The translations under genes and the position numbers were made by a program. Below, one piece after another: positions 20,708-43,293 of a stretch of DNA of 64,000 nt. Each line of letters starts with the position of its first letter. Position 1 is the stretch's first letter. Under the pieces are notes generated by a model that was given only the letters and a program-made list of their open reading frames with translations, had not been told where the DNA came from and searched no databases. Source of the stretch: a phage; sequence record OZ335963.1, one strand, 5' to 3'.

Positions 20708-21676
20708 TTATTTCAGAAGAGTAACCTCAGCGATTTCTTCCCAACCGTTTTTGTCGGTCATAATAAAGTCAGCAAGATAAAGAGCAGTACGCAGTGAAAC
20801 ATTGCGTAAACGATTAACATTAACTTTCATCCATGATAATGCTTTATAAGTTTCTTCATCAGAAAGACCGCGCTTTTGCATCATGTCAGTTGAAAGAATA
20901 ACATCTTCAACCCTGACCATAATTTCTTCATTAGTATGAACACCCAAATCCAAATAAACCGAGCGGGACACTAATGCTTGTAAATGTGGAGCAAGTTTAG
21001 TACCACGGTCTAATTCGCGGTCAATGTCAACGTTTGTGATAAAAACAATCGTTCCTTTAAATTCAAACTCACGCTCAATGCCTTTTTCTTCTAAGTAAGA
21101 AGACGCAGTGCTCCAGCAGACTTTACGGGTCTCTCCAGTGTCCAGAGCAGCTTTTAGAAGATTAAGAATGTCCATATCAGAGAAAACATCCACATCATCA
21201 ATCAAAAGGACAGAATTCTCTTCACGATTATTCCAAAGCTGTTCATAAAGACCAATACCAGAGATTTTACCATTAATGCTTTTATATTCAATGTATCCAA
21301 TATCATTTGCTTTATTCAAAGCTTTATCTAAAGAATACGTTTTACCAATACCTGCTGCGCCAGAGATAATTAATGAACGAATATTTCCATTAATAATACC
21401 ATTCGTCATCATTCCCATAACATTAAATCTTTTATTAATGCGGGTTTTCATATCTTCATACGATTCTTTAACTTCTTCAACTTTTACACCATCATATGAA
21501 ATATCTGATTTGTAAACCCAAACACCGCGACGTTTACCGTCAATTTCAACAAAAACTTTACCATCTCCTTGTGCATCTACCGGAGCATTATCTGGGAACC
21601 ATTCGCCTAAGAGCTCAAAAGTTCCAGAGATTTCTTTACCGAAGTAGATACCCTTATTGATAGTTACAGTTTTCAT
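20708..21676 (-). CDS. P-loop ATPase, AAA+-like (about 322 aa)
   Basis: Walker A SGAAGIGKT, Walker B VLLIDDVD, sensor-like FITN; ATG at 21676 with GGAGAA RBS (track ORF extends to 21694). Confidence 0.6.
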   Translation of the reverse strand: MKTVTINKGIYFGKEISGTFELLGEWFPDNAPVDAQGDGKVFVEIDGKRRGVWVYKSDISYDGVKVEEVKESYEDMKTRINKRFNVMGMMTNGIINGNIRSLIISGAAGIGKTYSLDKALNKANDIGYIEYKSINGKISGIGLYEQLWNNREENSVLLIDDVDVFSDMDILNLLKAALDTGETRKVCWSTASSYLEEKGIEREFEFKGTIVFITNVDIDRELDRGTKLAPHLQALVSRSVYLDLGVHTNEEIMVRVEDVILSTDMMQKRGLSDEETYKALSWMKVNVNRLRNVSLRTALYLADFIMTDKNGWEEIAEVTLLK

Positions 21677-21722
21677 TTTATTCTCCAATTTCACATTTGT
21701 TTTGATAGGGTAATAGTATCAC

Positions 21723-21752
21723 ACTACTACCCTACTGTAAACAATTTATTTT
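21723..21752 (-). promoter_or_regulatory. Early-type promoter upstream of the ATPase gene
   Basis: Minus strand GTTTACA, spacer, TACTAT. Confidence 0.4.
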
Positions 21753-22009
21753 AGTGTTTGCCAAATTTTTACTGCTTCGCGACGAGATACTTCTACAGCT
21801 CCAAGTTCTACGGCTTTTTGACGTCGGCGAGCATGTAAGTCATAATGTTTAATGCGTTTATCTTGAAACCAAGAACGTTTCATTCCTATTGCTTCTGCCA
21901 TTTCATGGAGCTCTTCAATATCTCCATCAGTGAACATATGACAATTTTTAGTTAGATGACCGCGAAGTTTCCATCCATGATTCATTAAAACATCTACGTA
22001 AACTGTCAT
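21746..22009 (-). CDS. Small protein, DUF4031-like (87 aa)
   Basis: MTVYVD...HMFTDGDIEELHEMAEAIG...HYDL...AVELGAVEV pattern resembles DUF4031 as recalled. Confidence 0.4.
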   Translation of the reverse strand: MTVYVDVLMNHGWKLRGHLTKNCHMFTDGDIEELHEMAEAIGMKRSWFQDKRIKHYDLHARRRQKAVELGAVEVSRREAVKIWQTLK

Positions 22010-32024: not shown

Positions 32025-32215
32025 TTCTGTATTTACCCATTACCGCACTTGGGCTCGACCTTATTACAGGTTGGCGGGAATCCCTCATAGAATCATGAGG
32101 TCCAGGTTGTTCCCATGTTATTTGAATGTAAATATTTTTGCCGTAATACTATACCAGTGTGGCTTCATTAAAATTTTTTCATTGAGTCATTTTACCTCTC
32201 CAAGTAATTATGAAT

Positions 32216-32245
32216 ATACTATCACAATTTTAGGAGAAAGTAAAC
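32216..32245 (-). promoter_or_regulatory. Early promoter upstream of ipII
   Basis: Minus strand GTTTAC, spacer, TAGTAT. Confidence 0.4.
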
Positions 32246-32247
32246 TG

Positions 32248-32550
32248 CTATTTACCTTTAATTACTTTAGCTGCTTCGATAGCCGCTTGCTGAAGGTCGT
32301 CCATAGACATACCGAATTTAGAAGCAAAGTTATCAATTTTCTTTTCGACAGCATTCAAAGGCTTGGCCTGTTTACCTTCATTAGCGCCAGGAAGAGCGAG
32401 AATACGCTCTTTGTCAATATAAAGGCTTACAAGTTTCTTACGGTCTTTATCGGACAAATCATGAAATGAATGAGCCTTTTTATTTATAGCGGCTTCTAAT
32501 TTACTCGCAGTTACGCGGGCTTCAGTGATAAATTCTTGATAGGTTTTCAT
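32248..32550 (-). CDS. ipII: Internal protein II (head-packaged, injected)
   Basis: 100 aa; N-terminal capsid-targeting leader MKTYQEFITEA; position next to ipIII and e. Confidence 0.85.
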   Translation of the reverse strand: MKTYQEFITEARVTASKLEAAINKKAHSFHDLSDKDRKKLVSLYIDKERILALPGANEGKQAKPLNAVEKKIDNFASKFGMSMDDLQQAAIEAAKVIKGK

Positions 32551-32571
32551 ATGTTTCCTTTAAATGTAAAT

Positions 32572-32589
32572 AGGCCTAAGTATCGGCCT
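32572..32589 (-). terminator. Hairpin between ipIII and ipII
   Basis: Plus aggcctaagtatcggcct inverted repeat. Confidence 0.3.
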
Positions 32590-32591
32590 TA

Positions 32592-33167
32592 TTAATTACC
32601 ACGGGCTGCATTAGCAACGGCATAAGCATACTGAACATTAGCGTCTTTAAACGTACCTTTAGAGGTATCTATTTCTGCCTTAAAGCCGCCTTTAGCCATA
32701 ACATCGGCGAATTCTTTACGGAAAGCCATTGCATCAAGACCTTTCCATGTTGATTTGTGCTTGGCGAATTCAAGACCAGCGTAGTTGACAGCTTTAGCCA
32801 ATTTATTATCAATGACCCATTTACCGGCTTTAGGCACAAACTTCGGACCTTTTTGTTTAGAGAACAGTTTTAAATTCCAGCGACGAAGATCACTATCGGC
32901 TTTAACAAAAGCTGCGTCTAAGTTACTAGCAACAACATCTTCAATATGAGCAAATTTAAGTCCGTCAACTTCAATATTTAGATCGTTACGCCAGCGAAGT
33001 CCTTCCCAAGCGAAAGCTTTAAAATCAGAAGCTTTTGTGGCTAGATATCGTTCAAGCGGAGCAGTTTTAGGGTCAAAGCCGTTTCCTCGGTAAGTCCACT
33101 CATCTTTATTAATGCCTTTGGCCTTTTCCGCAGAAGCTTCAGCGATAAATTCTTTATACGTTTTCAT
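32592..33167 (-). CDS. ipIII: Internal protein III
   Basis: 191 aa; leader MKTYKEFIAEA; Lys/Ala-rich basic protein. Confidence 0.85.
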   Translation of the reverse strand: MKTYKEFIAEASAEKAKGINKDEWTYRGNGFDPKTAPLERYLATKASDFKAFAWEGLRWRNDLNIEVDGLKFAHIEDVVASNLDAAFVKADSDLRRWNLKLFSKQKGPKFVPKAGKWVIDNKLAKAVNYAGLEFAKHKSTWKGLDAMAFRKEFADVMAKGGFKAEIDTSKGTFKDANVQYAYAVANAARGN

Positions 33168-33204
33168 GTGTTTCCTTTAAATATTTTAATTAGTAACTGT
33201 GAAT

Positions 33205-33234
33205 ATACTATCACAGTTCTAGAAGAAAGTAAAC
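33205..33234 (-). promoter_or_regulatory. Early promoter upstream of ipIII
   Basis: Minus strand GTTTAC, spacer, TAGTAT. Confidence 0.4.
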
Positions 33235-33238
33235 AACT

Positions 33239-37057: not shown

Positions 37058-37087
37058 ATAGTACCATGGAAGAACAGGGATGTAAAC
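37058..37087 (-). promoter_or_regulatory. Early-type promoter
   Basis: Minus strand GTTTACA, 17 nt, TACTAT. Confidence 0.45.
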
Positions 37088-38810: not shown

Positions 38811-38886
38811 TGGTCGAGGCAGTAGGGATCGAACCTACGACCTAGGACTTAGAAGGTCCTTGCTCTTCCTTCTGAGCTATGCCTCG
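38811..38886 (-). tRNA. tRNA-Arg (anticodon UCU)
   Basis: Hand-folded cloverleaf; anticodon loop CTTCTAA; T-loop GGTTCGATC; CCA encoded. Confidence 0.85.
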
Positions 38887-38890
38887 TATT

Positions 38891-38965
38891 TGGCGGACAT
38901 GCATGGATTCGAACCATGGACCAATTGATTAACAGTCAACTGCTCTACCACTGAGCTACACATCC
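38891..38965 (-). tRNA. tRNA-Asn (anticodon GUU)
   Basis: Hand-folded cloverleaf GGATGTG...; anticodon loop CTGTTAA; T-loop GGTTCGAATCC; CCA encoded. Confidence 0.7.
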
Positions 38966-38969
38966 AAAT

Positions 38970-39056
38970 TGGTGGGGAGTGATGGAGTCGAACCACCCGA
39001 GTCGCAATGACAATGGATTTACAGTCCACACCGCTACCTCTACGGGATAACTCCCC
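38970..39056 (-). tRNA. tRNA-Tyr (anticodon GUA), long variable arm
   Basis: Anticodon loop CTGTAAA; long variable arm as in bacterial tRNA-Tyr; CCA encoded; D-arm is atypical. Confidence 0.55.
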
Positions 39057-39069
39057 TTAATTCTTAATT

Positions 39070-39144
39070 TGGTGGCCCTGGGTGGAATTGAACCACCATC
39101 TGGCGATTATGAGTCGCTTGCTTGAACCTTCCAGCTACAGGGCC
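39070..39144 (-). tRNA. tRNA-Ile (anticodon CAU; Met/Ile not distinguishable from sequence)
   Basis: Anticodon loop CTCATAA; Ile assigned by analogy with T4 tRNA-Ile. Confidence 0.75.
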
Positions 39145-39145
39145 T

Positions 39146-39221
39146 TGGTGCTGATTGACGGAATCGAACCGCCGACATCCTCATTACAAGTGAGGTGCTC
39201 TACCTACTGAGCTAAATCAGC
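39146..39221 (-). tRNA. tRNA-Thr (anticodon UGU)
   Basis: Cloverleaf GCTGATT...; anticodon loop CTTGTAA; CCA encoded. Confidence 0.85.
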
Positions 39222-39226
39222 AAAAC

Positions 39227-39316
39227 TGGCGGAGGCGATAGGATTTGAACCTATGAGTCGCCGGAGCGACTGCCGGTTTTCAAGACCGGTGCATTAAACC
39301 ACTCTGCCACGCCTCC
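39227..39316 (-). tRNA. tRNA-Ser (anticodon UGA), long variable arm
   Basis: Cloverleaf GGAGGCG...; anticodon loop CTTGAAA; CCA encoded. Confidence 0.85.
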
Positions 39317-39318
39317 AG

Positions 39319-39392
39319 TCTCCGCGGCAGGATTTGAACCTGCGACATTCTGCTCCCAAAGCAGACGCTCTACCAAACTGAGCTACACGGAG
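39319..39392 (-). tRNA. tRNA-Pro (anticodon UGG), CCA not encoded
   Basis: Cloverleaf CTCCGTG...; anticodon loop TTTGGGA; abuts tRNA-Ser as in the T4 Pro-Ser dimeric precursor. Confidence 0.85.
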
Positions 39393-39402
39393 TAAATTAA
39401 AT

Positions 39403-39476
<74 letters not shown>

Positions 39477-39481
39477 AAATT

Positions 39482-39568
39482 TGGTGCGAGAAGTGGGACT
39501 CGAACCCACAAGGAAATCATTCCGCAGCATTTTAAGTGCTGTGCCTTTACCAATTTGACCATTCTCGC
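39482..39568 (-). tRNA. tRNA-Leu (anticodon UAA), long variable arm
   Basis: Cloverleaf GCGAGAA...; anticodon loop CTTAAAA. Confidence 0.85.
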
Positions 39569-39569
39569 G

Positions 39570-39642
39570 CTGGGAATAAAGGACTCGAACCTTTGCATCT
39601 AGCAGTCAAAGTGCTATGCCTTACCAACTTGGCTAATTCCCA
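39570..39642 (-). tRNA. tRNA-Gln (anticodon UUG), CCA not encoded
   Basis: Cloverleaf TGGGAAT...; anticodon loop CTTTGAC; first tRNA of the cluster. Confidence 0.85.
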
Positions 39643-39728: not shown

Positions 39729-40244
39729 TTAAAGCAAATTAAACATTTTAACGGTCGGTAAAACAATTTCTTCTTCGATATAAGCAAATTCTACATGTTC
39801 AACTACACGCAAGAAATCATATTCGCAGTATTCAGAAGCATGACCAAGAATATCAATGAGGCCTTCAGATATCTTATTACCATTCACAAAGAATAAGTCA
39901 AATACGCGTTCTTCATCTTCTTCGGATTTATTACCAAGGTCAACTTCTATATCAAAGACCTTTTTAATGAATTCTGGATAAAGTTGGTCTGAGAACAGTC
40001 CTTCAACCAAATATTCATATATAAAAAGCTCTTGCTCGCTGAATAAACCATTGCCGCAATAACGGTCAGCTTTGGTGCTAGAATGACGGCTCTTAAACTT
40101 CTTCAAAAGATATTTAAATTGTTGGAGCTCATGCTCTTCTACGCCAAACAGTGTTTTAGTTTTATAGTTGTCACCATCATTTTCATAGGTAGTGACATCA
40201 ATTACGTAACCCTTAGGAATTGTGCTGCCTAAACGAATATACAT
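39729..40244 (-). CDS. Hypothetical acidic protein, 171 aa
   Basis: ORF between the tRNA cluster and ipI. Confidence 0.5.
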   Translation of the reverse strand: MYIRLGSTIPKGYVIDVTTYENDGDNYKTKTLFGVEEHELQQFKYLLKKFKSRHSSTKADRYCGNGLFSEQELFIYEYLVEGLFSDQLYPEFIKKVFDIEVDLGNKSEEDEERVFDLFFVNGNKISEGLIDILGHASEYCEYDFLRVVEHVEFAYIEEEIVLPTVKMFNLL

Positions 40245-40540
40245 TTGCTCACCATATTAATGTAAGTATATTTAATACATTCAAGACCCAAAGGATTCTT
40301 GAAAATATCATATTCAAGAGGACCTTTTTCTGTTTCAATAAAGAAATCAAAATTTACTGTATTAAATTTACGGTCTTCCTTTACTAATTTAACCTGTGAA
40401 GACGAACGGTCAATGTAAACCTTTTCAACTTCAAAACACGTTAAAATGTCATAATCATCAATCAAGGCTTTAGCTGCTTCTTGATCATATTTATATCCAT
40501 TTTCAATGGATGATACTTTCGCATAAAGAATCATTATCAA
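40229..40540 (-). CDS. Hypothetical protein, 103 aa
   Basis: ORF. Confidence 0.45.
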   Translation of the reverse strand: MIMILYAKVSSIENGYKYDQEAAKALIDDYDILTCFEVEKVYIDRSSSQVKLVKEDRKFNTVNFDFFIETEKGPLEYDIFKNPLGLECIKYTYINMVSKCIFV

Positions 40541-40956
40541 CCTTCATCAATAATAGTATGCGTATTGGCATTTACAATTTGCCACCAATCAAAGCGATTG
40601 GAACCATACATCGGTTTGTTTTCATTTTCTTTGATGATGTCACGGAGTTCATCTTCAGTGGCGGCTTTCGCGATTAAATCAGCATATCCACCACGAGGAT
40701 AATAATTATCACCTGCAAAAAGTAAAAAGTTTGGTTTAATGTTATTGAACTCTTCAAGAGTAATAACTTTTCCTGACGGTTGAACAATCTCTACATATTT
40801 ATATCCCAATTTTTGAGCCGCATCTACTGCTTCAAGCAAAGTATCATGAGCCCATCCAATTTGACAACCTGGCTTTTCAGATGGATTAGCCTGATAATCC
40901 GCATACACTTTATACATTCTATTCACCTTTAGAAATTTTATCCATAACAATAGCAA
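40537..40956 (-). CDS. Hypothetical protein, 126-139 aa
   Basis: ORF; probable start at the internal MYKVYADY. Confidence 0.5.
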   Translation of the reverse strand: MLLLWIKFLKVNRMYKVYADYQANPSEKPGCQIGWAHDTLLEAVDAAQKLGYKYVEIVQPSGKVITLEEFNNIKPNFLLFAGDNYYPRGGYADLIAKAATEDELRDIIKENENKPMYGSNRFDWWQIVNANTHTIIDEG

Positions 40957-41104
40957 TTAAACCAATTAAAAATGCTACTACAAGTGAAAACACATTTTCT
41001 GCTGTAGTCAATAATCCGCATATAAATCCAACAAACATTGAAAAACTAAAAGCGGAAGCAGAAATTGCAATAGCAACATTTCGAATTAATTCACAACGTT
41101 TCAT
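40919..41104 (-). CDS. Small membrane protein, 61 aa
   Basis: Two hydrophobic helices; follows a promoter and a GAGGAG RBS. Confidence 0.5.
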   Translation of the reverse strand: MKRCELIRNVAIAISASAFSFSMFVGFICGLLTTAENVFSLVVAFLIGLIAIVMDKISKGE

Positions 41105-41133
41105 TTTATTCTCCTCGGTAGTTGATAGGGTAA

Positions 41134-41162
41134 TAGTATCACAACTAAAACCCTATGTAAAC
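41134..41162 (-). promoter_or_regulatory. Early promoter
   Basis: Minus strand GTTTACA, 17 nt, TGATACTAT. Confidence 0.45.
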
Positions 41163-41180
41163 AACTTTGTGAAATATTTA

Positions 41181-41468
41181 TTACAAAAGATTTTTAGCAA
41201 TAATCTTGAGATGTGCCGCAGAAATGTGTTTAGCTTTAAACAACGCAGTTTCTTCAGCAGGAGAGATAATGATTGTAGCACCATCCTTTTTAGCAGACCA
41301 CCCATCACCTAGGTAAACAGTACCTTTGATTTCTTCGCCATCAACCAGACTAATCATTGGTTTACCTTCTCGTCCTTTATTTGCTTTAATAACTTCAGAA
41401 GTAAGAGTAGCTTCGGTAATAGTAGAAACTGGGGTAGTTGTAGAAGTAAATTCTTTAAATGTTTTCAT
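41181..41468 (-). CDS. ipI: Internal protein I (injected anti-restriction protein)
   Basis: 95 aa; leader MKTFKEFTSTTTPVSTITE (19 aa); matches the T4 IPI precursor length. Confidence 0.8.
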   Translation of the reverse strand: MKTFKEFTSTTTPVSTITEATLTSEVIKANKGREGKPMISLVDGEEIKGTVYLGDGWSAKKDGATIIISPAEETALFKAKHISAAHLKIIAKNLL

Positions 41469-41489
41469 TTTATTTTCCTAATTAATTTT

Positions 41490-41528
41490 GATGAGATAAT
41501 GGTATCACAACTAAAACCCTGTGTAAAC
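41490..41528 (-). promoter_or_regulatory. Early promoter upstream of ipI
   Basis: Minus strand GTTTACA, spacer, TACCAT; region near-identical to 41829-41858. Confidence 0.4.
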
Positions 41529-41540
41529 AGCTTTGTGAAA

Positions 41541-41798
41541 TTATTTTAAATCTTCTAATCGTTTCTTCATCTTAGAACCGTTCTTAGCGATTTCGCCTGC
41601 ATCAGAGCATAATGCTAAAAGAGCTTTAACTTTAGTTTGGTCTCCTTTAAAAGATGAAGGATCGACTGCAGCAGCAAGTTCTTTAATACGAGAGAAAAGA
41701 CGCTCAGCTTCAGCTAAAGCCATTCCAAGCTTTACTTCCATACCGTGGGAAGATTCAGTAATAGTAGTTTTTGTAGCAAACTCTTTGAAAGTTTTCAT
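41541..41798 (-). CDS. Candidate additional internal protein with capsid-targeting leader, 85 aa
   Basis: N-terminus MKTFKEFATKTTITE parallels the ipI leader; own duplicated promoter and RBS region. Confidence 0.55.
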   Translation of the reverse strand: MKTFKEFATKTTITESSHGMEVKLGMALAEAERLFSRIKELAAAVDPSSFKGDQTKVKALLALCSDAGEIAKNGSKMKKRLEDLK

Positions 41799-41828
41799 TT
41801 TATTTTCCTAATTAATTTTGATGAGATA

Positions 41829-41858
41829 ATAGTATCACTACCTCATCAGCATGTAAAC
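41829..41858 (-). promoter_or_regulatory. Early promoter upstream of the 85-aa IP-like gene
   Basis: Minus strand GTTTACA, spacer, TACTAT. Confidence 0.4.
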
Positions 41859-41870
41859 AACTTTGTGAAA

Positions 41871-42567
<697 letters not shown>

Positions 42568-42568
<1 letters not shown>

Positions 42569-43293
42569 TATAGTACCTTTAGTGTATTTTTAATTTTAGA
42601 AAAAAGTTCTTCAAGAGAACCATCGTTTGTAATTACTAAATCGCCATCACGAATTGGCAATCCAGCTTCTGTAATATGAGTATCATTGGATTTTTGACCA
42701 GGACGAACTACATGAATTACTGTAGCACCCATCGCCCTAGCCGCATCCATTTCATGATCTTGACGAGTATCAGGAACGATATAATAATCATAGCCTGAGT
42801 TAAATTTATCAAGATAATCTAAAGCAAATAATTTTACCCAATACATGCGGTCGAAGTTATTAACAATCAAATCCGTACCTAGGGCTTGCATCAGACGACG
42901 GACTGACCATTGATCTTCAATATTATTTATAACATCAGCAATCTTGTTAAATGCTACGAAAGTAACTGATTCTTTTCCTTCGTCATCAAAAACAAACACG
43001 CCTTTAATTGGGCTTTTACTATTAAGATAGCAAAATGCTTGTTCCATAATCGTAATTACTTCTAATTTAGTCAGATTTAAATTAGTCTCACGATCATAGT
43101 CAATTCCTTCAAACTCTTTACGAGTTAAGCAAGGATAGTCAGTGTTTGCAGCAAACACGCCCCATGCATAAGCCAATGCATCTTTAATAGGACCAGCAAG
43201 TTGATATTTAGCTGCAGAATAATTATTCATGATAAAATCTGCAGTAGTATCTTTTCCACTACGCTTTACACCACTTAAAAAGATTAGTTTCAT
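42568..43293 (-). CDS. 1: Deoxynucleoside monophosphate kinase gp1
   Basis: 241 aa; P-loop GVKRSGKDT; T4 gp1 is 241 aa. Confidence 0.92.

What the first reader, a model, noticed from the sequence alone, without database searches (positions are those of the whole stretch)
41105..41870. ipI locus holds two tandem leader-bearing genes with duplicated promoter and RBS blocks
ipI (41181-41468) is followed by a second 85-aa gene (41541-41798) beginning MKTFKEFATKTTITE, parallel to the ipI leader MKTFKEFTSTTTPVSTITE. The upstream about 70 bp of the two genes are near-identical (tttattttcctaattaattttgatgagataat[g/a]gtatcac... gtaaac), each holding a GTTTAC / TA(C/T)TAT early promoter. This reads as cassette duplication with divergence of the cargo protein, consistent with an arms-race locus.
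Basis: partly seen in the sequence, partly recalled or inferred. Interest (0 to 1): 0.6.

Follow-up and report, generated by a model that had tools for sequence, protein, structure and literature searches.

The report
Known T-even internal-protein cassette array (Ip5–IPI)
This is the well-described variable "internal protein" locus of T4-like phages, here carrying two small virion-packaged, host-injected proteins (Ip5 and IPI), each behind a copy of the same early-promoter block; it is a known arrangement made by cassette shuffling, not a fresh duplication.

Summary
On the minus strand, ipI (41181-41468; 94/95 identical to T4 IPI) is preceded by an 85-aa gene (41541-41798) with a parallel leader, and their 72-bp upstream regions are 61/72 identical. 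Each holds GTTTAC, 18 nt, then TAC(T/C)AT, a Shine-Dalgarno sequence and the leader codons. A third copy (41105-41180) precedes tRNA.4.

The arrangement is already known. The 85-aa protein is 100% identical to Ip5 of phage RB15 (GenBank Z35082), and 57B–Ip5–ipI–tRNA.4 is annotated in RB14 and present in RB3-RB10. The conserved promoter blocks and shared leader at the T-even IP loci trace to Repoila et al. 1994.

"Duplication with cargo divergence" is not supported. The two proteins match only in the leader. IPI is the solved α/β fold 2JUB, whereas Ip5 is predicted to be a helical hairpin.

The block upstream of ipI is a chimera: the Ip5-cassette tail joined to the ipI head, crossing within the 12-bp core GTGATAC(T/C)ATTA, and its hairpin is lost. 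That fits homologous recombination between alternative cassettes.

Ip5's target is unknown; an injected anti-restriction role is inferred by analogy with Ip1, Ip2 and Ip3. Interest is low.

The parts
41871..42326 (-). Gene 57B (Acb1 anti-CBASS nuclease family). It forms the fixed upstream border of the IP array.
   Evidence: Pfam Acb1 2.6e-60. Annotated 57B in RB14 and T4. In all but one of the ten loci compared, its 3' tail carries the type-A left half-block (..GTTTACAT[A/G]CTGATGAGGTA); the IMG/VR locus L039 has a type-B tail.
41799..41870 (-). Promoter/RBS block 1, upstream of ip5: -35 GTTTAC, -10 TACTAT, hairpin TGATGAG/CTCATCA around the -10, and AGGA Shine-Dalgarno.
   Evidence: Promoter scan. 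RNA fold -14.8 kcal/mol, z = -2.65. The T4 block upstream of ipI and the RB15 block upstream of ip5 differ from it at only 2-3 positions.
41541..41798 (-). ip5: 85-aa internal (head) protein precursor. The leader MKTFKEFATKTTITE has an I-T-E gp21-type cleavage motif, giving a predicted 70-aa mature helical-hairpin protein.
   Evidence: 100% identical to RB15 Ip5 in Z35082. phrog_3499 'internal head protein' 1.2e-49. Annotated Ip5 in RB14. AF2 model has helices 17-44 and 54-84 with pLDDT 72. I13, T14 and E15 are invariant among the close variants. The L/I-X-E motif is from PMC9026906.
41469..41540 (-). Promoter/RBS block 2, upstream of ipI. It is a chimera: the left part (stop codon, -35, spacer CAGGGTTTTAGTT) is the Ip5-cassette tail and the right part (TCTCATCAAAATTAATTAGGAAAATAAA) is the ipI-type head. 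The -10 is TACCAT and no hairpin forms.
   Evidence: Segment identities: spacer 13/14 to the RB15 ip5-to-ip9 block against 5-6/14 to the 57B-proximal block; right part 28/28 to the 57B-proximal block against 18-20/28. Fold z = +0.38.
41181..41468 (-). ipI: 95-aa precursor of IPI*, the injected inhibitor of GmrS/GmrD type IV restriction. The leader is MKTFKEFTSTTTPVSTITE and the mature protein is residues 20-95.
   Evidence: Pfam IPI_T4 2e-53. 2JUB matches residues 20-95. 94/95 identical to T4 IPI. Function is from PMC3012670 and PMC12373910.
41105..41180 (-). Promoter/RBS block 3, upstream of tRNA.4: same -35 and core, hairpin ATAGGGT/ACCCTAT, and a different 5' UTR (CAACTACCGAGGAGAATAAA).
   Evidence: Fold -17.4 kcal/mol, z = -2.63.
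40919..41104 (-). tRNA.4: 61-aa predicted membrane protein. It forms the fixed downstream border of the IP array.
   Evidence: Annotated tRNA.4 in RB14 and T4. phrog_1692 6e-35.

Best explanation
This is the 57B–tRNA.4 'IP1' hyperplastic locus of a T4-like (Tequatrovirus) phage, holding two alternative internal-protein cassettes in tandem: Ip5, then IPI.

Each cassette has four parts: (1) a 'head', running from the -10 downstream sequence through the Shine-Dalgarno sequence; (2) a conserved N-terminal capsid-targeting leader ending in an I-T-E prohead-protease site; (3) an unrelated cargo protein; and (4) a 'tail', running from the stop codon through the A/T-rich UP region and -35 GTTTAC to the left hairpin arm.

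Adjacent cassettes share the 12-bp -10 core GTGATAC(T/C)ATTA and the roughly 20-bp TTTCACAAAGTTGTTTAC segment. The phage's homologous recombination system can therefore swap, add or delete cassettes between co-infecting relatives. The Ip5–IPI array arose when an Ip5 cassette (as in T2, RB15 and RB32) was joined to a T4-type ipI cassette by a crossover in that core. This left a hybrid, hairpin-less block upstream of ipI.

Functionally, both proteins are made from T4 early-type promoters, targeted into the prohead core by the leader, trimmed by gp21, packed with the DNA and injected. IPI* blocks GmrS/GmrD. Ip5 most likely blocks a different host defence, probably another modification-dependent nuclease.

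Shown here: gene identities, block anatomy, the chimeric junction, and the distribution across phages. Inferred: promoter activity, packaging and cleavage of Ip5, and the anti-defence role of Ip5.
For: Identity and prior annotation: (RB14 has 57B-Ip5-ipI-tRNA.4; Z35082 is 'RB15 DNA for Ip5, Ip9, Ip7, Ip8').

Alternative arrays at the same slot: T4 has ipI only; T2 has ip5 plus a 102-aa IP gene; RB32 has ip5-ip9-ip7; RB15 has four IP genes. Of 36 IMG/VR loci, most of those in which the script found both borders hold 1-5 genes with a recognisable leader between 57B and tRNA.4.

Chimeric junction: one search gives the segment identities. One search shows that every ip gene keeps its own head and tail across the genomes compared, with the switch always in GTGATAYTATTA. 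Searches show that the hairpin pairs only in matched head/tail combinations.

Cargo unrelated.

Leader and cleavage motif.

Anti-restriction precedent: PMC12373910, PMC3012670, PMC9391042.

Shuffling at conserved promoter blocks in IP loci is already described: PMC2839356 and PMC4122927, both citing Repoila 1994.

An Ip5 homologue (54% identity) lies in the other IP locus (between e and denV) in phage VR25, which shows cassette mobility between loci.
Against: There is no direct evidence here that Ip5 is packaged, cleaved or injected, or that any of the three promoters fires.

The only late-promoter consensus nearby lies inside gene 1 (42924-42931), so how enough protein is made at head-assembly time is not shown.

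The crossover model is inferred from sequence mosaicism in about 10 genomes. Gene conversion or independent point changes could mimic part of it.

Some of the block similarity is generic T4 early-promoter consensus: the TTTCACAAAnnnGTTTACA half also occurs at 37081 and 22213.

The Ip5 model has only moderate confidence (pLDDT 72, four-sequence alignment).
Confidence: 0.88

Rival explanations
1. This is the first reader's reading: a local tandem duplication of an ipI cassette (promoter, RBS, leader and cargo), followed by rapid divergence of one cargo until similarity was lost.
For: The promoter block and leader are clearly homologous: 104/123 nt and 14/26 aa. Small proteins under arms-race selection can diverge fast.
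Against: Cargo similarity stops abruptly at the cleavage site. The folds differ: 2JUB is α/β, while Ip5 is predicted all-α. Ip5 occurs without ipI in T2, RB15 and RB32 with an identical sequence, and distant Ip5 homologues sit in another locus, so Ip5 predates this array. The junction block is a hybrid of two pre-existing block types.
Confidence: 0.04
2. The block similarity reflects only convergence on the long T4 early-promoter consensus plus a good RBS. No recombinational history or cassette mobility is involved.
For: The 5' half (TTTCACAAA..GTTTACA) also occurs at unrelated early-promoter-like sites at 37081 and 22213. The core GTGATACTATTA occurs at 21711.
Against: Identity downstream of the -10 is 28/28 through the 5' UTR and continues into the leader codons and into the 3' end of the upstream gene. 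That is far beyond any promoter consensus; the other early-promoter sites do not share this half. Arrays differ among near-identical phages exactly at block boundaries.
Confidence: 0.05
3. The 85-aa ORF is a non-functional remnant, neither expressed nor packaged. Only ipI matters at this locus.
For: No expression or proteomic data were available. Only 12 database records hold the ip5–ipI junction.
Against: The ORF is intact and at least 95% identical in about 250 phage records. It is kept at 48-54% identity in other genera, with length differences between variants (80-94 aa) that leave the ORF intact, and with conserved motifs (KLGxAL.EAE, EIAKNG, RLE). It has its own promoter, Shine-Dalgarno sequence, leader and I-T-E site.
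Confidence: 0.03

Closest known systems
T-even phage IP1 locus polymorphism (Repoila, Tétart, Bouet & Krisch 1994, EMBO J 13:4181; GenBank Z35082 and related records)
   Same: It occupies the same genomic slot (57B to tRNA.4) and includes the same gene (Ip5, 100% aa identity). It has the same conserved leader and the same roughly 70-bp conserved early-promoter blocks on both sides of each ORF, and the same shuffling was proposed. The content of the 1994 paper is recalled from my own knowledge; it is corroborated by PMC2839356, PMC4122927 and record Z35082.
   Different: Nothing essential differs. The particular Ip5–IPI combination is the RB14/RB3-type array rather than the T4, T2 or RB15 arrays. 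The window sequence is 97-98% identical to those records, not identical.
RB14 / RB3-RB10 genomes (FJ839692, KM606994-KM606999)
   Same: The gene order 57A-57B-Ip5-ipI-tRNA.4 is identical, and identity over the 1.4-kb stretch is 96.9-97.8%.
   Different: The genes beyond tRNA.4 differ: the window has a 125-aa gene where RB14 has tRNA.3. The window's ipI promoter has TACCAT where RB14, T4_ev240, T4 and T2 have TACTAT.
PeSL (promoter-early stem-loop) cassettes of RB49/phi1 and other T4-like phages (Arbiol et al. 2010; Comeau et al. 2014)
   Same: Intergenic early promoter plus stem-loop motifs flank small non-essential genes and act as recombination sites for modular shuffling. Crossovers map within or next to the loop (PMC2839356), as at the hybrid ipI block here.
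   Different: Arbiol et al. state that the IP-locus elements are analogues of PeSLs, not homologues. They are T4-early-type rather than σ70-like promoters, with weaker AT-rich stems and no polyG/polyC. Here no stem is followed by a T-run, so none is terminator-like, and the hairpin straddles the -10 element.
T4 IPI*/Ip2/Ip3 injected GmrSD inhibitors
   Same: The N-terminal capsid-targeting leader and L/I-X-E cleavage site are present. The proteins are small and non-essential and lie in an IP locus. IPI here is 99% identical to T4 IPI.
   Different: Ip5 has no sequence similarity to IPI and no significant sequence or fold match to any solved structure. Its target is unknown.

Membership tests
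T4 IPI (Pfam PF11634 IPI_T4; PDB 2JUB), tested on gene 41181-41468 | Sequence match of the mature 76-residue domain | tested here: met
   Pfam 2e-53 over residues 20-95. 2JUB 1.5e-44 over residues 20-95 against chain residues 1-76. 94/95 identical to T4 IPI.
T4 IPI (Pfam PF11634 IPI_T4; PDB 2JUB), tested on gene 41181-41468 | Inhibition of GmrS/GmrD type IV restriction | not testable with these tools
   Inferred from 99% identity to T4 IPI; function is from the literature.
T-even internal proteins (CTS-bearing IPs), tested on the 85-aa gene (Ip5) | N-terminal capsid-targeting leader of the MKT(F/Y)(K/Q)EF type, with aromatic residues at positions 4 and 7 | tested here: met
   The leader is MKTFKEF, with F4 and F7. 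Positions 4 and 7 matter for targeting in IPIII (PMC9026906). The same leader is found in IPI, IPII and IPIII of this window.
T-even internal proteins (CTS-bearing IPs), tested on the 85-aa gene (Ip5) | gp21 cleavage motif L/I-X-E at the end of the leader | tested here: met
   I13-T14-E15 is invariant among the close Ip5 variants even where residues 8-12 are deleted. The distant homologues have L-N-E or L-A-E. The motif is from PMC9026906. Cleavage itself was not tested.
T-even internal proteins (CTS-bearing IPs), tested on the 85-aa gene (Ip5) | Location in one of the two IP loci (57B–tRNA.4, or the IP locus beside gene e: ipIII–ipII in this window, e–denV in VR25) | tested here: met
   It lies between 57B and tRNA.4. 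A homologue lies between e and denV in VR25.
T-even internal proteins (CTS-bearing IPs), tested on the 85-aa gene (Ip5) | Physical presence in the virion and injection into the host | not testable with these tools
   No proteomic report on Ip5 was found in the held literature.
Ip5 family (phrog_3499; RB15 Ip5 CAA84462) | Full-length sequence match | tested here: met
   100% identity to RB15 Ip5. phrog_3499 1.2e-49 over residues 1-85 of 85.
IP-locus conserved promoter block (Repoila-type, 'PeSL-like') | T4 early-type promoter (-35 GTTTAC, -10 TAnnAT) in a conserved block of about 70 bp both upstream and downstream of the IP ORF | tested here: met
   Three blocks flank the two ORFs. Promoter activity was not tested.
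IP-locus conserved promoter block (Repoila-type, 'PeSL-like') | AT-rich stem-loop associated with the promoter | tested here: inconclusive
   Present in blocks 1 and 3 (z about -2.6) and absent in the chimeric block 2 (z = +0.38). Across 29 block variants it pairs only in matched head/tail combinations.
True PeSL (RB49/phi1 type) | σ70-like promoter plus GC-rich (GGGG...CCCC) stem-loop acting as a terminator | tested here: not met
   The stems are AT-rich, straddle the -10, and are followed by an A-rich rather than T-rich tract. No terminator-like site was found. Arbiol et al. call the IP-locus elements analogues, not homologues.

The most novel reading that the evidence does not exclude
Ip5, a roughly 70-residue helical hairpin with no relatives outside T-even-like phages, may be an injected inhibitor of a host defence distinct from the GmrSD variants blocked by Ip1, Ip2 and Ip3. 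Phages that stack Ip5 with IPI next to Acb1 would then gain an additive host range. A second point: the hairpin-less hybrid block shows that the promoter-straddling stem-loop is dispensable for cassette function, so its conservation in matched junctions may reflect recombination history rather than regulation.
Probability: 0.45. Interest if true: 0.4.

Novelty: already known. Interest (0 to 1): 0.15.

Why it matters
The locus is a textbook case of how T4-like phages diversify their injected counter-defence repertoire. Knowing that this genome carries IPI, Ip5, IPII and IPIII helps predict its host range against type IV restriction systems. Nothing conceptually new follows from this finding.

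Two small additions come out of the analysis. First, the head/tail dissection places the cassette junction in the -10 core. Second, the chimeric junction has lost its hairpin. The real open question is the target of Ip5, which needs experiments.

Tried and rejected
- **PDB sequence search with Ip5:** only E > 0.7 noise.
- **Foldseek of the Ip5 model against PDB:** 175 matches, none with E ≤ 0.001, all generic helical hairpins (LSD1 tower, designed bundles, DksA, TraM). Uninformative.
- **Word-indexed protein search:** only 5 near-identical clusters.
- **Exhaustive HMMER over 1.84 billion representatives with the mature Ip5:** only 2 clusters, so no profile deep enough for remote homology or a confident structure could be built.
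- **Pfam for Ip5:** only a sub-threshold DUF7890 hit (13 bits against a cutoff of 26). Rejected.
- **Rfam on 40500-42500:** only a snoRNA chance hit, E = 0.82.
- **Intrinsic terminator scan:** none found, so the stem-loops were not interpreted as terminators.
- **Literature:** Repoila 1994 (PMC395341) is not held in the library. Searches for 'Ip5' returned nothing, and a search for virion proteomics gave no relevant hit.
- **Column-wise covariation test of the hairpin:** considered and dropped, because the arms sit at different offsets in different block types. Per-block inverted-repeat detection was used instead.

Full report
**What is there.** The region lies in a T4-like (Tequatrovirus) genome, and all relevant genes are on the minus strand. 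In the direction of transcription the order is:
- gene 1 (dNMP kinase) and 57A;
- 57B at 41871-42326, Pfam Acb1 2.6e-60;
- an 85-aa gene at 41541-41798;
- ipI at 41181-41468;
- the 61-aa tRNA.4 gene at 40919-41104;
- further small ORFs and a cluster of 10 tRNAs at 38811-39642.

ipI matches Pfam IPI_T4 at 2e-53. It matches the solved IPI* structure 2JUB at 1.5e-44 over residues 20-95, and it is 94/95 identical to T4 IPI.

**Checking the observation.** The 72-nt regions upstream of ipI (41469-41540) and of the 85-aa gene (41799-41870) are 61/72 identical without gaps, and none of 10,000 shuffles reached that value. The repeat extends to 123 nt at 85% identity. It covers the first 35 nt of each coding region and 16 nt of the 3' end of the gene upstream.

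All copies contain (G)TTTACA, 17 nt, TAC(T/C)AT with a TG extension, an AGGA Shine-Dalgarno sequence and ATGAAAAC. A third copy at 41105-41180 precedes tRNA.4, so the two IP genes are each bracketed by blocks.

- The -10 hexamers are TACTAT and TACCAT, not TA(C/T)TAT.
- Nine of the 11 mismatches are concentrated between the -35 and -10 elements.
- There are three blocks, not two.

**What the 85-aa gene is.** It is 100% identical to Ip5 of phage RB15 in GenBank Z35082 ('Bacteriophage RB15 DNA for Ip5, Ip9, Ip7, Ip8'). It matches phrog_3499 'internal head protein' at 1.2e-49. In RB14 it is annotated as Ip5 in exactly this order, 57B-Ip5-ipI-tRNA.4, and RB3, RB5, RB6, RB7, RB9 and RB10 have the same arrangement.

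About 250 phage records encode Ip5 at 95% identity or more. Only 12 of 50,697 records hold the Ip5–ipI junction as one piece. The combination is therefore uncommon but already sequenced and annotated.

**The locus is a known variable array.** The same interval holds different sets of IP genes in different phages:

| Phage | Genes between 57B and tRNA.4 |
|---|---|
| T4 | ipI |
| T2 | ip5, 102-aa IP |
| RB32 | ip5, ip9, ip7 |
| RB15 | ip5, ip9, ip7, ip8 |
| T4_ev240 | ip5, ipI, 74-aa IP |

In 36 IMG/VR loci recovered with 57B as bait, most of those in which the script found both borders hold one to five genes with a recognisable leader in this interval; a few loci were not resolved.

From my own knowledge, Repoila et al. 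1994 (EMBO J 13:4181) described exactly this: ten IP-like ORFs with a conserved 11-residue leader, flanked by conserved roughly 70-bp blocks containing a T4 early promoter, which were proposed to mediate shuffling. That paper is not held in the library. However, Arbiol et al. [quoted passage not shown] 2014 repeat this.

**Duplication or shuffling?** The two proteins align only over the leader: 14 of 26 positions, and nothing beyond. Mature IPI* is a compact fold of two β-sheets flanked by helices (PMC3012670). Ip5 is predicted as two long helices, 17-44 and 54-84, with pLDDT 72. It has no PDB sequence match, and its Foldseek matches are only generic hairpins.

The mature Ip5 cargo has just two clusters at 50% identity among 1.84 billion proteins. 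The second cluster is the 48-54%-identical form, which in phage VR25 sits in the other IP locus, between e and denV. Ip5 is therefore an independent cargo family, not a diverged ipI copy.

**The junction tells the history.** I aligned every block in the 57B–tRNA.4 interval of the window, T4, RB14, RB15, RB32, T2, T4_ev240 and three IMG/VR loci.

Each gene keeps its own 'head', which runs from downstream of the -10 to the ATG. ip5, ipI and ip7 share YCTCATCAAAATTAATTAGGAAAATAAA, while ip9 and tRNA.4 share CCCTATCAACTACYGAGGAGAATAAA.

Each gene also keeps its own 'tail', which runs from the stop codon through the -35 to the spacer. The 57B tail is type A (CTGATGAGGTA) in all but one of the ten loci; L039 is the exception. 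The ip5 and ipI tails are type B (AGGGTTTTAG).

The switch always falls in the core GTGATAYTATTA. In the window, the block upstream of ipI matches the Ip5 tail at 13/14 in the spacer, against 5-6/14 for the 57B tail. It matches the ipI-type head at 28/28, against 18-20/28 for the alternative.

Matched combinations form a hairpin around the -10. These are TGATGAG(G)/(C)CTCATCA and ATAGGGT/ACCCTAT, with fold z of about -2.6. The hybrid block does not form one, with z = +0.38.

This is what a crossover in the shared core would leave, between an Ip5-bearing array and a T4-type ipI array. Insertion of an Ip5 mini-circle would give the same product. T4 recombination needs only short homology patches (cited in PMC2839356).

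**How it most likely works.**
- Shown: the anatomy above.
- Inferred from established T4 biology: the 10-residue CTS targets IPs into the prohead core, with positions 4 and 7 critical, and gp21 cleaves after L/I-X-E (PMC9026906). Ip5 has F4, F7 and an I13-T14-E15 motif that is invariant among its close variants, even in one lacking residues 8-12. A 70-residue mature Ip5 is therefore expected to be packed and injected.
- Inferred by analogy: IPI, Ip2 and Ip3 each block a different GmrSD-type enzyme with no cross-protection (PMC12373910; PMC9391042). Ip5 probably blocks yet another defence. This was not tested here.

**Caveats.**
- Part of the block's 5' half is generic early-promoter consensus. 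Sites at 37081 and 22213 share TTTCACAAA..GTTTACA.
- A full IP-type block also occurs outside the IP loci, at about 21.7 kb.
- No terminator-like feature follows the stems.
- The nearest late-promoter consensus lies inside gene 1, so late expression needed for head assembly is unexplained by sequence alone.
- Rfam finds nothing in the region.

**Verdict.** The 'arms-race cassette' interpretation is right, but the 'duplication with cargo divergence' part is wrong. The feature is already known, as both a locus type and a specific arrangement. Interest is low. The head/tail dissection and the hairpin-less hybrid junction are minor refinements.

Noticed in passing
window 21680-21760 (-), upstream of ORF 20708-21676 (-): A complete IP-locus-type block (GTTTAC, stem TAGGGTA/TACCCTA around GTGATACTATTA, then CCCTATCAAAACAAATGTGAAATTGGAGAATAAA-ATG) sits about 20 kb from the IP loci. 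It precedes a roughly 322-aa P-loop-like gene. By eye, its right half appears identical to the block upstream of tRNA.4 in RB15. These blocks are therefore not confined to the two IP loci, contrary to the suggestion in Arbiol et al. 2010.
   Followed up: partly
window 32195-33235 (-): This is the second IP locus: IPIII-like (32592-33167, 191 aa, MKTYKEFIAE) and IPII-like (32248-32550, 100 aa, MKTYQEFITE). The pair is bracketed by two copies of a different early-promoter block, GTTTACTTTCTYCTARAAYTGTGATAGTATATTCA. The phage thus carries four leader-bearing IPs in all.
   Followed up: partly
window 41871-42326 (-): 57B is a member of the Acb1 anti-CBASS nuclease family (Pfam 2.6e-60). Acb1, Ip5 and IPI therefore form a contiguous run of three known or presumed counter-defence genes.
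   Followed up: partly
window 41541-41556 and 41871-41886: Both 57B and ip5 end in ...DLK-stop. The DNA repeat extends 16 nt into these 3' coding ends, so the recombining block overlaps the C-terminal codons of whichever gene lies upstream.
   Followed up: no
window 41499-41504 (-): The ipI promoter -10 in this window is TACCAT, and the -35 flank has AAAGCTG. RB14, T4_ev240, T4 and T2 have TACTAT and AAAGTTG. These are two substitutions private to this window among the loci compared, and their effect on promoter strength is unknown.
   Followed up: no
L002 (T4_ev240, LR597657) locus 1751-1975: This laboratory-evolved or recombinant phage has a third cassette (74 aa, MKTYQEFIAEAKRH, ip8-like) inserted between ipI and tRNA.4. 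It suggests cassette gain at this locus can occur on short timescales.
   Followed up: partly
window 38811-39642 (-) and 39729-40914 (-): The window has ten tRNA genes where T4's annotated cluster has eight. Beyond tRNA.4, the small ORFs (125, about 101 and 171 aa) replace T4/RB14 tRNA.3 and tRNA.2, and the 101- and 171-aa ORFs match the sizes of the T2 ORFs at this position. The mosaic boundary lies immediately next to the IP array.
   Followed up: no
window 42924-42931 (-): The only T4 late-promoter consensus (TATAAATA) upstream of the ip genes on the coding strand lies inside gene 1. Late synthesis of the IPs, needed for prohead assembly, would require read-through across 57A and 57B and through the promoter-straddling hairpins.
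   Followed up: no
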